A stretch of DNA of 64,000 nt, from assembly GCA_963731265.1 (NCBI GenBank), contig CAVSUE010000001.1:1472001-1536000 (forward strand), given 5' to 3'. The notes beneath the pieces were generated by a model. That model ran no database searches and was not told the DNA's origin. It was given only the letters and a program-made list of their open reading frames with translations. This stretch comes from an uncultured Verrucomicrobiae bacterium. GTDB taxonomy: Bacteria; Chlamydiota; Chlamydiia; Chlamydiales; Rhabdochlamydiaceae. This document shows positions 43,620-47,255 of this stretch, piece after piece. The position numbers were made by a program, and so were the translations under genes. Every line of letters starts with the position of its first letter. Position 1 is the first letter of the stretch.

Positions 43620-43676
43620 GAATTCCCACAATTTTTTAACAAAATTGTAAAACAAGCCCGGCTCGATGAGCCGGTT

Positions 43677-45975
43677 CTCGAGTTTGGAGAAGTGAGAGCG
43701 GGTTGCAAATCTGAACCACCACGATTGCTATATGCCAACTTTTGAATTACTCTTTGTTAAGTAAGTTCGCTTACTTACTCTCCCATTTGGAAAAGCTTTT
43801 GCAAACTCTGTTGAGATTCCGGTAGCGCAGCCAAATTGTGCACGCCTTGAGCTCGGAGGTTGTTCCACGCCGTCAAAATTCCCCATTGATTGGCGTAAGC
43901 ATGCAATTTGGAAATCTGATGATCCCGATCTAATGCTTGAAACTCTTCAACCAGCGCATTCAACTCACCAGCCAGTCCATTGTAATTTTTAGAGTCAAAG
44001 GCTTCGACCATCAACTTGGCCGTATTGGATTTGTCTGCAATCTCACCGAGCTTTGCTTGAAAAGCTTTTAGCTTCTGTTGGAAACTCAACCAAGGGCACT
44101 CTTCTTCATAAAGAATGACGCCACATGTGTTCGTCTCTTCCATCTTATCTTCGACTACTTGGGATATTGCCCCCACAAGCATTGTGAGGTTTGTCTTTCG
44201 TCGTTCAGCCTCCGTTTTTACCTTGTTGTCTCTAAAATCTTCTGCGACTTCTAGAATCTCTAGCCTATCCAACTTCACAAAGTCAGGGGAAGCTAAGCAA
44301 ATCAATTTCACGTCTTCTGCCGATAAAATGCCGATTTTTTCTAAATGCCCCGAACGGCAATTTAGCTTTTCTGAATACCCCTTTTCGGTTTTGATTCCAA
44401 GGTGAACTAGCAATTGAGGGTTATTTTTTGGAGGCAGCTCATTCAAGTAGTCCAGTATTGCCTGAGCCTTTTGAGCAACTTGTAGATCTTAGCCCATTTT
44501 GATTGTGAAAGGCATCTTCTGCACATCCCGGATACTCATTGGCAAAAGGTTGGCAAATCGCATGGAGCTTTTGATAGATGGCATCTTTTGCCGTTTTTGG
44601 CATTCTCGAAAAACGCTGAGAGTCAAAGCCATATATACCATGACTTGTATCTTCTTCTAACGATTTTGCGATCTGTTGAAAATCGTCCGAGGATCCGCTG
44701 TAAAATCCCAGACCTTGATTCCATTGCGGGAAGGCAAAAAGAGCTTCCCATCGAAGGCAGTAAGAGGGGGGGACGGGCTGTACTTATCGCGGTGTTTCAG
44801 GGTCGCTGTCCGCTTTTCTGTTTTTAGGTCCCGAACCATGATATTGCCGTCGGTAGAGGCGGAAAAGACCTTCCCATCAAAGGTGGCAAGAGAGTAAACC
44901 GAGCTAAAATGGGGATAATCGGTCGTTGTGCACTCTTTTGTTTTTAGGTCCCAGACCTTTATACAGCCGTCGGAGTAGCCCGAAAAGAGTTTTCCGCCGA
45001 AGATGGCAATAGAGTCAACCCAGAGGTCATCGGAGTTAACCGAGTCCTCATTTTCTCTAAAGAACGCTGTGCACTGTCCTGTTTTCAGATCCCAAATCTT
45101 GATAGTGCCGTGGGAAGAGCCCCAAAAGAGCTTGCCATCGAAGACCTTAAGAAAGTTAACCGGTTCATTGTCTGAGAGAATCGCTGTGCACCAGCCTGTT
45201 TTTAGGTCCCAGAACCTGATTGTCCTGTCCTCAGAGGCCGAAAAAAGGTGCTCATCAAAGACAGCAAGAGAGTTAACCTCCCACTTATGGCCTGTAAGGG
45301 TCGCTGTACACTGTGCTGTTTCCAGGTCCCAAACCTTGATAGTGCCGTCCATAGAATCAAGAGAGCCCGAAAAGAGCTCCCGTCGAAGACGGCAAGAGAT
45401 TCAACCGAGCCCTCAGGGCATGTAAGGGTATGGAAAGCATACACTCCTGTTGTGATGTTTGAATAAACGCGTTGGTAGGCACTCTTGAAATTCTCAATGG
45501 AGCTTGGATTAACGCTTGGAAAACGGTGATGAAATAATATGCGCCAAACATTGTTATCCTTCAATATCTTGGTCCATTGTCTACAGACCAAGGAACTTGT
45601 CGCGATCTCCTGGCTAGACAAGTATCTCAAAATTTGAGGGACTATATCTAGCGGCATGTCAAAGCGTTGTCTCCTCCGGTAGAATGGGTAACAGGGCTGG
45701 TAAGCTGTGAGGGTGGATTGATTTCGTCATGATTAATTCTCTGATTAAGGTTTTTTTATTTAAAAGATTGGTTAAACAATATAATAAAAAATTTAATTAA
45801 TTTATAATTTTATATATAAATCATTATCTAATAAAACTATTTTTGATTGAAAAAGAAATCGTTACATTGACCTATAAAAGAATCGCCCAACTGAGGTGTC
45901 CGGCGGAGTCCCGACGCCGAGGGGGTAGAGGGAGAGCTCGGGAGGGCCACCCCTCTTGATTTGTCCAAACTCGAG
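43677..45975. mobile_element. Non-autonomous cargo element with TIRs and a 21-bp target site duplication
   Basis: TIR ctcgagtttgga (43677-43688) / tccaaactcgag (45964-45975), directly flanked by gcccggctcgatgagccggtt at 43656-43676 and 45976-45996. Confidence 0.88.
43775..45730 (-). pseudogene. Frameshifted F-box/WD40 protein, paralog of 11802..13832
   Basis: Fragments: F-box 45202..45657, WD40 44657..45352 and C-domain 43775..44446, which ends LFQMGE like the paralog. Confidence 0.9.
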
Positions 45976-45995
45976 GCCCGGCTCGATGAGCCGGT

Positions 45996-47255
45996 TTATT
46001 TGATTAGCCTTTCCCAAGGCCCGTAACGCTCCCAAACGGGGCCTCTGCGAAATGCAAGGGCAACGATCAAAATACCCATTGATACATCATTTAAGACACC
46101 TCCCAAGTGGGAGCCCGTCACGATCCAAGGGAGCAAAATAAGAGTAAGGCCGAACAGCACATTCAAGTAGCGGATGCTGCGAAAAGCTTCTGCGCATGCA
46201 ATGACGGAGAACGCCACGATCATCGGGCCAAGAATAAAATTTCCAACGGCAAGATTTTTGTTAAGCTGCAGCACAGCAGGGCTGGCCATCAGCCAGATTC
46301 CGAGAATAATAGAAACGGCCAGATTCCAAGGCAACGTGGCGCCGATGGAAAATTTTAAAACCTTCCGCGGAACTGCAGGCGCAACTTTAGGAAGCGGGCT
46401 TCCCACTCCCTCCCAGAACACCTGCGATTGGGATCCTCCTTTTTGCCGCGTTTCTTTCAACAACTGCAAAACTGCTGCCAACTCCCCTGCTGTGAGGACA
46501 ATCATCAGAAGCATGGCAGCTGCCGTCGCCAGACACCAGGAGCACCATGCGCCGACGACAACGGGTTGCAAGATGATCAGCGTGATGCTGACAATGCCGA
46601 CAGGGATCACCAAAAAGGCAAAAGCAAAAACTAGCCATGGCATCGTGTACCAACGGCGGGAACTCCCCTGCCAACCTAAAAGAAACTCCAGCGTGTAGCA
46701 AATGGCGCCAAGGCCGGCATCGGAGACAGGGAAGCTTCTAGAAATGTTCGAAGTGATCACTTCCAGCGTACCATTGGGAAAAAAAGGATCCCAAATCTGA
46801 TCGATATAACCCAATTGAAAACAGGCCATGTACCTGGAAAAAAACCAACATAGGAGAGCGAGCGCCACCGTTGGGATCCGATGCCCCCAGCCTGAGGGAT
46901 TATACGACCACCCTTTTGGACAGCTGCTGCCCCTTGTATCGGTATCTGTTTTGGCGAGCTGAAACGAAAACACGATCGCAAGGGCTCCAATCACGGTATC
47001 GTTGATGTACATCAGTGGAAGGGGCGCCCAAAATAGAAGCGGGGCGATTTGCAGCCAAACGCCGACGAGTCCGATCGCCCACCCCGCCCAGGCACGTTTA
47101 GATGAGAAAGAAAGGAAACCAAAAACAATCAGCAAAAGAGCCGAAACCAGATCACTCCCTTCAATGAGAGGGCACCGATATCCAAGGGTTAAAGGGAGGG
47201 CGATTAACCAAAATCCTAATGCAATAGAGAGGAGAGCAATCCGGTTTTTATTCAT
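45996..47255 (-). CDS. Vitamin K epoxide reductase (VKOR) family protein with SPW-type membrane repeats
   Basis: GWSYNPS, WDPFF, FPVSDAGLG, IILQP...WCSWC. Confidence 0.85.
   Translation of the reverse strand: MNKNRIALLSIALGFWLIALPLTLGYRCPLIEGSDLVSALLLIVFGFLSFSSKRAWAGWAIGLVGVWLQIAPLLFWAPLPLMYINDTVIGALAIVFSFQLAKTDTDTRGSSCPKGWSYNPSGWGHRIPTVALALLCWFFSRYMACFQLGYIDQIWDPFFPNGTLEVITSNISRSFPVSDAGLGAICYTLEFLLGWQGSSRRWYTMPWLVFAFAFLVIPVGIVSITLIILQPVVVGAWCSWCLATAAAMLLMIVLTAGELAAVLQLLKETRQKGGSQSQVFWEGVGSPLPKVAPAVPRKVLKFSIGATLPWNLAVSIILGIWLMASPAVLQLNKNLAVGNFILGPMIVAFSVIACAEAFRSIRYLNVLFGLTLILLPWIVTGSHLGGVLNDVSMGILIVALAFRRGPVWERYGPWERLIK

What the first reader, a model, noticed from the sequence alone, without database searches (positions are those of the whole stretch)
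43656..45996. Transposase-less element carrying an F-box/WD40 effector, inserted in a terminator-like hairpin with a perfect 21-bp target duplication
Seen: the structure is DR(21)-TIR-cargo-TIR-DR(21). The TIR is 12 bp perfect and extends to 17 bp with 2 mismatches (ctcgagtttggagaagt vs ctcgagtttggacaaat). The DR is itself a hairpin (ccggctc-gat-gagccgg) between two convergent genes. The only cargo is a eukaryote-like effector gene with its AT-rich leader, plus a GC-rich subterminal segment (45890-45956). Established: IS1634/IS1549-type elements make unusually long, variable DRs, and mobile insertion cassettes carry passengers between IS ends. Inference: a cassette vehicle that could explain F-box family expansion in environmental chlamydiae. 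It is also possible the gene entered a pre-existing MITE.
Basis: partly seen in the sequence, partly recalled or inferred. Interest (0 to 1): 0.82.

Follow-up and report, generated by a model that had tools for sequence, protein, structure and literature searches.

The report
Transposase-less cassette duplicating a terminator hairpin
A 2.3-kb piece of DNA carrying a now-broken F-box/WD40 gene is a transposase-less offshoot of an insertion sequence that lands on terminator hairpins and copies the whole hairpin on both sides.

Summary
A perfect 21-bp direct repeat and a 12-bp perfect inverted repeat bound a 2,299-bp insert (43677-45975). Each occurs only there in the 2.34-Mb genome. A same-genus relative (G003) and a metagenome contig join the flanks through one copy of the hairpin, which is an empty site.

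The ends belong to a real insertion sequence. Complete 1.7-kb copies in metagenome contigs have the same 18-bp end and the same GC-rich subterminal module. They encode a 459-aa DDE transposase that is IS701-like but scores below the curated cut-off.

This family sits against palindromic hairpins and duplicates them (21-31 bp). The same holds for a 45%-identical relative in another phylum and for three short MITEs. The window element is therefore a mobile-insertion-cassette-type derivative.

- The transposase is IS701-like, not IS1634-like.
- The passenger is a pseudogene with at least three frameshifts, the only broken copy of 31 paralogs.
- No transposase remains in this genome. Only 4 of 31 paralogs keep an element end, and most lie in tandem arrays, so the cassette does not explain the family's expansion.

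Hairpin duplication has a precedent in IS1630 (IS30 family). I rate this a new variant of a known kind.

The parts
43656..43676 (.). Left copy of the 21-bp target duplication (terminator hairpin CCGGCTC-GAT-GAGCCGG plus 2 nt on each side). On the - strand it is followed by the original T-rich tail.
   Evidence: A single copy is present in G003 and in a contig of run X4.
43677..43694 (+). Left terminal inverted repeat. It matches 15 of 18 positions of the family end CTCGAGTTTGGACAAATC, and the first 12 are perfect.
   Evidence: Homology with copy2 (C1:832377) begins exactly at its first base.
43695..43774 (-). 3' flank of the passenger gene. Bases 43704-43757 are a fragment of a dispersed ~90-nt repeat. 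The region is shared with copy2 and with its orthologue in G003.
43775..45657 (-). F-box / WD40 / C-terminal-domain gene, now a pseudogene. Frame changes lie near 45364-45379, near 44678-44720 and near 44478-44500.
   Evidence: Pfam F-box-like E 1.8e-9 and WD40 propeller families. Three-frame reading. tblastn with an intact paralog. The open frame is 151 aa, against 410-754 aa in the other 30 paralogs.
45658..45883 (-). AT-rich leader upstream of the passenger gene, shared with several paralogs.
45884..45957 (+). GC-rich subterminal 'A-end' module of the parent IS, with two hairpins. In the autonomous IS it follows the transposase stop codon.
   Evidence: 88-90% identical to ends in G013 and G014. 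Present in the complete IS copies L131 and L127. Alignment and consensus fold. 4 copies in this genome. No Rfam family.
45958..45975 (-). Right terminal inverted repeat, 18 of 18 identical to the family end.
45976..45996 (.). Right copy of the 21-bp target duplication. It lies directly behind the stop codon of the VKOR/SPW gene.
45996..47255 (-). Flanking 419-aa VKOR + SPW-repeat membrane protein gene, whose terminator was the target (context only).

Best explanation
Bases 43677-45975 are a non-autonomous, passenger-carrying derivative (mobile-insertion-cassette type) of an IS701-like insertion sequence family that lives in this bacterial lineage. The lineage is probably an environmental chlamydia.

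The parent IS is about 1.7 kb. It has 18-bp terminal inverted repeats (CTCGAGTTTGGACAAATC), a hairpin-rich left subterminal module, a 459-aa DDE transposase and a GC-rich right subterminal module.

The family inserts at the foot of palindromic, terminator-like hairpins. Repair of the staggered cuts duplicates the entire hairpin, so the duplication is as long as the hairpin (21-31 bp).

The window element keeps the right module, both terminal repeats and the family's target and duplication signature. In place of the transposase it holds an F-box/WD40 gene with its own leader. A transposase supplied in trans placed it in the terminator behind the VKOR/SPW gene. This happened after the split from the G003 lineage.

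This genome no longer holds a transposase, and the passenger has since decayed to a pseudogene, so the element is now a fossil.

Shown: the structure, the empty site, the shared ends, the autonomous relatives and the hairpin rule. Inferred: mobilisation in trans, the order of events, and the idea that the cuts are a short stagger made across an extruded cruciform.
For: 1. Junctions. The 21/21 direct repeat and the 12/12 inverted repeat are each unique to this locus in the genome.

2. Empty site. G003 locus L002 aligns to both flanks at 95-97% identity, overlapping by just the 21-mer. Of 9 relatives' loci compared, 7 hold both flanks less than 0.9 kb apart and 2 hold only the VKOR side; none has room for a 2.3-kb insert. 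A contig of run X4 joins 43672 to 45994.

3. Same ends elsewhere. The right 88 nt is 88-90% identical to ends in G013 and G014. In G014 all 8 end matches lie within about 190 nt of contig ends, as expected for a multicopy repeat.

4. Autonomous copies. L131 (1,700 bp) and L127 (1,697 bp) carry both 18-mers, both subterminal modules and a 459-aa ORF. NCBIfam IS701_3 gives E 7e-38. D96, D215 and E355 are invariant in 8 homologues.

5. Hairpin rule. 19 of 21 ends carrying an A or B module abut a hairpin with a stem of at least 7 bp. Of 53 other matches to the end motif, 40 have no such hairpin (many of these matches lie in unrelated, GC-rich sequence). At least 8 of the 13 that do are demonstrably element ends.

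6. Duplications:
- window element: 21/21
- L131 IS: 22/22
- L156 IS, 45% aa identity, from another phylum: 21/21
- MITEs: 20/21 and 22/25
An L128 MITE gives 19/22, counted by eye; it fell below the script's threshold. A G014 pair on two contigs gives 31 bp.

7. The cargo travels with the end. At copy2 (C1:832377), homology starts exactly at the repeat's first base and runs into the gene's 3' part.

8. A trace of transposase codons 12-31 lies about 8 nt from the A-end module at C1:447480-447536.
Against: - No transposase homologue exists in this genome (tblastn best E 0.14), so mobilisation in trans is inferred, not shown.
- The left end matches only 15 of 18 positions and lacks the parent's left subterminal module.
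- Only two independent loci carry this left end. The G003 copy is orthologous to copy2.
- No donor copy was found. The closest paralog is 80% identical in DNA.
- One complete IS (L127) has two different 36-nt palindromes at its sides and no duplication. This may reflect an assembly or recombination chimera, or it may show that duplication is not obligatory.
- copy2 shows no convincing hairpin at its end.
- The transposase scores below NCBIfam's cut-off (130.5 against 170 bits).
Confidence: 0.85

Rival explanations
1. The occupied state is ancestral. The 'empty sites' in G003 and in run X4 arose by deletion through recombination between the two 21-bp repeats.
For: Recombination between 21-bp direct repeats would leave exactly one copy, which is what searches show.
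Against: More distant relatives also have the two flanks less than 0.9 kb apart (6 further loci). The 21-bp repeats would still need an origin. Hairpin-long duplications are the rule for this IS family at unrelated sites.
Confidence: 0.04
2. The gene was inserted into a cargo-free MITE that already sat at this site.
For: MITE derivatives of the family exist, at 212-295 bp.
Against: Empty sites show one hairpin and no MITE. The left end plus the gene's 3' flank occur together at a second locus. The right module plus leader plus gene occur together at 4 loci.
Confidence: 0.03
3. Integration was by a site-specific recombinase, with the 21-mer as the shared att core. The element would then be a satellite of an integrase-bearing element or a cassette.
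For: Identical direct repeats with dyad symmetry also flank integrated elements.
Against: The 18-bp terminal inverted repeats are shared with elements that encode a DDE transposase. The flanking repeats differ in sequence at every site, so there is no common att core. No recombinase gene lies inside the element.
Confidence: 0.02
4. Transposition happened in another strain or species. The occupied locus then reached this genome by homologous recombination of a larger segment, which would explain the missing transposase and the missing donor copy.
For: There is no transposase and no close donor in the genome. The right end is closer to ends in G013 and G014 (88-90%) than the cargo is to any paralog here (80%).
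Against: The flanks show no visible break in identity to G003 next to the insert (97% on the left, 95% on the right). Diverged solo ends show that the IS family once lived in this lineage. This rival changes the route of arrival, not the nature of the element.
Confidence: 0.1

Closest known systems
Mobile insertion cassettes (MICs) and passenger-carrying IS derivatives. Known to me from the Bacillus cereus MIC231 / IS231 work (recalled). The term appears in the listing, e.g. PMC5444012 and PMC6199540 (search listing and abstracts only).
   Same: IS-type inverted repeats flank a passenger gene with no transposase. The target duplication matches that of the parent IS. The cognate IS is found elsewhere.
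   Different: The parent is an IS701-like element that targets hairpins. The passenger is a eukaryote-like F-box/WD40 gene, now broken. Trans-mobilisation was not tested.
IS1630 of Mycoplasma fermentans (IS30 family), Calcutt et al. 1999. Seen only as a reference title and in a figure legend of PMC2853133 (passages). The paper itself is not held.
   Same: It targets inverted repeats of variable sequence and duplicates them, giving 19-26-bp duplications.
   Different: The transposase family differs. No IS30 model appears among the NCBIfam hits listed at E 0.01 or better. The host phylum also differs.
IS1272 (IS1182 family) of Staphylococcus aureus, PMC5678879 (abstract and section 22 read).
   Same: Its targets are 22-30-bp inverted-repeat structures, usually just downstream of genes, of differing sequence. 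Recognition is therefore structural.
   Different: IS1272 replaces the target hairpin and leaves no duplication. Here the hairpin is kept and doubled.
IS701 family, as defined in 'IS4 family goes genomic', PMC2266710 (passages).
   Same: It is the best-matching transposase models. It has a DDE enzyme, a single ORF, terminal inverted repeats and a similar size (1.4-1.7 kb).
   Different: That paper reports a target duplication of exactly 4 bp for almost all IS701 members. Here it is 21-31 bp and equals a hairpin. The score is below the curated cut-off.
   Same: Long duplications of variable length (8-514 bp reported).
   Different: The IS1634 model is not among the hits of the family's transposase at E 0.01 or better. 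It gives only E 2.6e-4 for a 44%-identical homologue. Here the length is set by the hairpin.

Membership tests
Mobile insertion cassette (passenger-carrying, transposase-less IS derivative) | Flanked by the terminal inverted repeats of an identifiable IS | tested here: met
   The right end matches 18/18 and the right 88 nt, subterminal module included, is 88-90% identical to ends in G013 and G014; complete ISs L131 and L127 carry the same 18-mer and module. The left end matches 15/18.
Mobile insertion cassette (passenger-carrying, transposase-less IS derivative) | No transposase gene inside | tested here: met
   The ORF list and Pfam show only F-box/WD40 pieces. tblastn of the transposase against the whole genome gives best E 0.14.
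Mobile insertion cassette (passenger-carrying, transposase-less IS derivative) | Carries gene(s) unrelated to transposition | tested here: met
   F-box-like E 1.8e-9 and WD40 propeller families. The gene is frameshifted.
Mobile insertion cassette (passenger-carrying, transposase-less IS derivative) | Target duplication of the same kind as the parent IS | tested here: met
   A 21-bp hairpin here, against 22, 21 and 31 bp hairpins at autonomous copies.
Mobile insertion cassette (passenger-carrying, transposase-less IS derivative) | Mobilised in trans by the cognate transposase | not testable with these tools
   Needs a transposition assay. Indirect support only: a second locus shares the same left end plus gene flank.
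IS701 family (for the parent IS) | Transposase reaches the curated score of a family model | tested here: not met
   NF049999 IS701_3 is the best hit at E 7.4e-38, but scores 130.5 bits against a cut-off of 170. Pfam DDE_5 is weak.
IS701 family (for the parent IS) | DDE catalytic residues conserved | tested here: met
   D96, D215 and E355 (L131 numbering) are invariant in 8 homologues down to about 23% identity. Their assignment as the catalytic triad is inferred from position.
IS701 family (for the parent IS) | 4-bp target duplication | tested here: not met
   Duplications are 21-31 bp and hairpin-long. The 4-bp rule is taken from PMC2266710.
IS1634/IS1549 family | Transposase similarity to the family model | tested here: not met
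   The model is not among the hits of L131 or L127 at E 0.01 or better. It gives E 2.6e-4 and 20 bits for the G416 homologue.
MITE | Short (a few hundred bp) and without coding capacity | tested here: not met
   This element is 2,299 bp and holds a gene remnant. True MITE siblings of 212-295 bp exist in L068, L069 and L128.
IS30 family (IS1630-type hairpin duplicators) | IS30-type transposase | tested here: not met
   No IS30 model appears among the NCBIfam hits listed at E 0.01 or better. Only the behaviour is alike.

The most novel reading that the evidence does not exclude
This IS701-like clade recognises DNA shape rather than sequence. It makes its family's usual short (about 4-nt) staggered strand transfer across the base of an extruded cruciform. 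The duplication therefore equals the hairpin plus about 4 nt: here 2 + 17 + 2.

Landing on terminators and regenerating one on each side makes insertion nearly harmless. That would let the element act as a vehicle moving eukaryote-like effector genes between safe sites, and possibly between co-resident chlamydiae. Published work attributes the expansion of such gene families in this phylum to duplication alone.
Probability: 0.3. Interest if true: 0.75.

Novelty: new variant of a known kind. Interest (0 to 1): 0.58.

Why it matters
Passenger-carrying, transposase-less IS derivatives and hairpin-seeking ISs are both known. This case joins the two and documents it unusually well: an occupied site, an empty site, autonomous copies, MITE siblings and solo ends.

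It extends whole-hairpin duplication to an IS701-like lineage whose family is described as making 4-bp duplications. The behaviour is conserved down to 45% transposase identity across phyla, which points to a structural mode of target choice that could be tested in vitro.

For chlamydial biology, it shows that at least one member of an expanded F-box family was moved as a transposable unit. Domman et al. 2014 (PMC4209131, passages) explain such expansions by tandem duplication and birth-and-death evolution. [quoted passage not shown]

The effect here is small. Two to four of 31 copies are involved, and this copy is dead.

Tried and rejected
- Rfam. No family matched the GC-rich module or any other part of the element, at gathering thresholds or at E up to 10 (the best was a truncated RNase P at 17.6 bits against a cut-off of 60). 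Single-sequence folds of the module are no better than shuffles (z -0.9 and -0.5).
- Interior of the G014 copies. It is not in that assembly.
- G013 and G002 matches. These turned out to be solo ends in intergenic regions.
- Order-wide pattern search with 2 mismatches. It was mostly noise, since control counts were similar, apart from recurrent variants.
- Metagenome scan. About 28 of the 45 loci are chance matches with no abutting hairpin, many of them in unrelated, GC-rich sequence; this is judged from the sequences around them, not from a translation.
- L127. No duplication was found.
- Paralog at C1:464864-467288. It has both flank remnants but no recognisable duplication.
- Public runs. 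No RNA holder is listed, and no run holds more than 0.16 of the sampled words. The assembly's junctions and frameshifts could therefore not be checked against its own reads. One low-depth run (X1) reproduces 44483-44835 with one base fewer in a G-run at 44766.
- Earlier notes of this scan. Nothing was found.
- Literature. The searches found no description of an IS701-like element that duplicates hairpins. This is not proof that none is in print, and ISfinder could not be consulted. The IS1630 paper is not held.
- Unused tools. Structure prediction, complex prediction and the large protein searches were not used, because nothing hinged on them.
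Full report
**What is there**

The window is G000:C1:1472001-1536000 of a 2.34-Mb, two-contig genome with 46% G+C.

- A perfect 21-bp direct repeat (GCCCGGCTCGATGAGCCGGTT) lies at 43656-43676 and 45976-45996.
- Directly inside each copy is the inverted repeat CTCGAGTTTGGA, 12 of 12, or 17 nt with 2 mismatches.
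- Each of these two sequences occurs exactly twice in the whole genome, at these places. For the 21-mer this holds even with 3 mismatches. Chance is excluded.

The 21-mer contains a 7-bp stem and 3-nt loop hairpin. It scores as a terminator-like site on the - strand at the left copy (tail GCTTGTTTTA) and on the + strand at the right copy (tail TTTATTTGAT).

The surroundings are as follows:
- To the right lies a 419-aa VKOR + SPW-repeat protein gene on the - strand. Its stop codon overlaps the repeat by one base.
- To the left lies a 98-aa ORF with no Pfam family.
- Beyond that ORF lies an rRNA operon on the - strand: 16S at 41379-42932, two tRNAs, 23S and 5S.
- The window's 16S matches two recalled pan-Chlamydiales primers, with 1 and 0 mismatches.

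**The cargo**

On the - strand the insert holds an F-box (Pfam F-box-like, E 1.8e-9), a WD40 propeller and a C-terminal domain with no Pfam family.

The reading frame changes at least three times: near 45364-45379, near 44678-44720 and near 44478-44500.

The genome has 31 matches to the F-box N-terminus. In 30 of them the frame stays open for 410-754 aa. Only this copy stops, at 151 aa. The breaks therefore do not reflect a generally error-prone assembly.

Contigs of related organisms in public runs carry one base more or fewer at 45375, 44678 and 44478/44481, which are the same three places. The assembly's own reads were not available.

**Empty site**

The VKOR gene was found in 14 of 31 related genomes. 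I compared 9 of their loci with window 42900-47300:
- In G003 (locus L002) the left flank (97% identity) and the right flank (95%) overlap by exactly the 21-mer. One hairpin sits between them and nothing else.
- Six further loci hold both flanks less than 0.9 kb apart.
- Two loci hold only the VKOR side.

A 2,288-nt contig of run X4 also joins 43672 directly to 45994. The 2,299-bp segment is therefore an insertion, derived in the lineage of this genome, with a 21-bp target duplication.

**The ends belong to an IS family**

Evidence from related genomes:
- The right 88 nt (the GC-rich segment plus the inverted repeat) is 88-90% identical to sequences in G013 and G014. In all, 3 of 19 genomes of the genus have it, counting G000.
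- In G014 all 8 matches to the end lie within about 190 nt of contig ends and point off the contig, as expected for a multicopy repeat.
- Two end types exist. The 'A-end' carries the GC-rich module. The 'B-end' carries another hairpin-rich module.
- B-ends were found in 4 of 129 genomes of the family.
- In G445 a B-end is followed by the start of a transposase-like ORF.

An exact-match scan of metagenome contigs with the 18-mer gave 45 loci:
- About 28 are chance matches with no abutting hairpin, many of them in unrelated, GC-rich sequence; I judged this from the sequences around them, not from a translation.
- L131 and L127 are complete elements of 1,700 and 1,697 bp.
- L124 holds a further transposase copy.

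The layout of a complete element is: 18-bp repeat and B module, a 459-aa ORF, its stop codon, the A module, then the 18-bp repeat.

The protein has these properties:
- The two copies are 88% identical to each other.
- The best NCBIfam model is IS701_3, at E 7e-38 and 130.5 bits. This is below the curated cut-off of 170.
- D96, D215 and E355 are invariant in 8 homologues.

Homologues at 45-72% identity were found in MAGs labelled Verrucomicrobiota, Chitinivibrionales, Bacteriovoracaceae and Pseudobacteriovorax. Their ends are similar, of the form CTCGACTTTGGACA or CTTAAGTTTGG.

**The family's rule**

Of 21 ends that carry an A or B module, 19 abut a palindromic hairpin with a stem of at least 7 bp, within 3 nt of the terminus. 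The other two have weaker hairpins.

Of 53 other matches to the end motif, 40 have no such hairpin; many of these matches lie in unrelated, GC-rich sequence. Of the 13 that do have a hairpin, at least 8 are demonstrably element ends: this element's left end, the L154 IS, and six ends of three MITEs.

| Element | Size | Duplication | Source |
|---|---|---|---|
| Window element | 2,299 bp | 21/21 | |
| L131 IS | 1,700 bp | 22/22 | |
| L156 IS (45% aa identity, another phylum) | 1,551 bp | 21/21 | |
| L069 MITE | 270 bp | 20/21 | |
| L068 MITE | 212 bp | 22/25 | |
| L128 MITE | 295 bp | 19/22 (by eye; below the script's threshold) | |
| G014 pair on two contigs | not assembled | 31 bp | |
| L127 IS | 1,697 bp | none; two different 36-nt palindromes | |

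The duplication length tracks the hairpin. L127 is the exception. It may be a chimera across a repeat, or a real case without duplication.

**Reading of the element**

The window element has:
- the family's right repeat (18/18) and A module;
- a left repeat matching 15/18, but no B module;
- the family's target and duplication signature;
- no transposase.

This is the anatomy of a mobile insertion cassette.

This genome has no transposase homologue (best E 0.14; also no match). It does keep fossils of the family:
- 4 A modules;
- two diverged solo B-ends;
- a trace of transposase codons 12-31 at C1:447480-447536, about 8 nt from one A module. In a 2.3-Mb genome that position is unlikely to be chance.

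At all 4 A modules the order is: repeat, A module, AT-rich leader, then an F-box gene or its remnant. The transposase trace suggests that leader and gene once lay beside a transposase gene in one unit. This is inference.

The left end plus the gene's 3' flank recurs at copy2 (C1:832377). There, homology begins exactly at the repeat's first base. The copy in G003:C145 is orthologous to copy2, at 86% identity over 1,343 nt. That gives two independent loci, one older than the G000/G003 split and one younger.

**Mechanism**

The following is shown: DDE-type ends, a staggered-cut signature, and structural rather than sequence-based target choice.

My favoured detail is inferred, at about 0.3 probability. 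The enzyme would make the short stagger reported for IS701 (4 bp; PMC2266710) across the four-way junction of an extruded cruciform. In linear coordinates the cuts would then lie one hairpin plus about 4 nt apart. The window's duplication fits this as 2 + 17 + 2. L156 fits with one unpaired base on each side, and the fully palindromic duplications neither support nor contradict it.

A consequence follows. The left copy keeps the - strand T-tail and can terminate the cargo before the rRNA promoter region. The right copy, behind VKOR, has lost its - strand T-tail.

**Family expansion**

Most of the 31 paralogs lie in tandem arrays, for example six at C1:1178731-1185730 and four at C2:149777-156136. 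Only 4 carry the A module and 2 loci carry the left end. Within the genus, the gene family itself is largely confined to G000 (35 DNA matches) and G003 (8 matches).

The cassette is therefore a minor route beside tandem duplication. Tandem duplication is also the published explanation for such families (PMC4209131, passages).

**Comparison with what is known**

- MICs share the anatomy.
- IS1630 (IS30 family) shares the behaviour, with 19-26-bp duplications of inverted repeats (PMC2853133 figure legend and reference title).
- IS1272 (IS1182 family) shares hairpin targeting, but it replaces the hairpin and leaves no duplication (PMC5678879).
- IS701 shares the enzyme lineage, but not the 4-bp duplication.
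- IS1634/IS1549 share only the long repeats.

My literature searches found no IS701-like hairpin duplicator. ISfinder could not be consulted.

**Verdict**

This is a new variant of a known kind and of moderate interest.

Noticed in passing
window 43704-43757; also G000 C1:1924909, 1248187, 672118, 899950, 946683, 1584141 and C2:161450, 272967, 174822; G002 (10 matches): A dispersed ~90-nt repeat (...CTGCAAATCTGAAGCGCCGACATTGCCATTGGCCAACTTTTGAATCCCTCTGTGTATA). Each copy begins next to a different hairpin. The element's left subterminal region holds a fragment of it, and a related repeat flanks several IS ends in G014. It may be the end of a second hairpin-seeking element.
   Followed up: partly
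window 11874-13829 (+) (= C1:1483874-1485829): Another full-length F-box/WD40/C-terminal-domain paralog (652-aa open frame) lies in the same window, without recognisable element ends.
   Followed up: no
G000 C1:1178731-1186978; C2:149777-158096; C1:530205-534896; C1:1090294-1098969: Tandem arrays of three to six F-box/WD40 paralogs (three to four in the last three). Two length classes occur: about 650 aa with the C-terminal domain and about 410-450 aa without it.
   Followed up: partly
G000 C1:447389-447700 (-): An A-end module is preceded by about 20 codons resembling transposase residues 12-31 and by an F-box-type leader. It looks like an internally deleted IS beside a degraded F-box paralog.
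   Followed up: partly
G000 C2:314300-314362 and C1:~89950-90037: Diverged solo B-end remnants of the IS family. The first lies downstream of a histidine-kinase-like ORF (my reading of the translated 3' end) and upstream of an F-box paralog.
   Followed up: no
L127 (metagenome contig), 500-2196 and flanks: A complete IS sits between two different perfect 36-nt palindromes with the same TTAA centre. Each lies at the 3' end of one of two convergent genes, one of which is a WD40 protein. There is no duplication, and this is unexplained.
   Followed up: partly
L068, L069, L128: Short MITEs (212-295 bp) carry the family's ends and hairpin duplications. L068 and L069 come from genomes of another family of the same order, and L128 from a metagenome contig.
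   Followed up: partly
window 44762-44772: A G-run inside the cargo is one base shorter in a near-identical low-depth contig of run X1. This is either a strain difference or a homopolymer error in one of the two.
   Followed up: no
window 43612-43627: A second small hairpin (GGGAATGAGAATTCCC) with a T-tail lies right after the 98-aa ORF. It is a possible terminator for that ORF.
   Followed up: no
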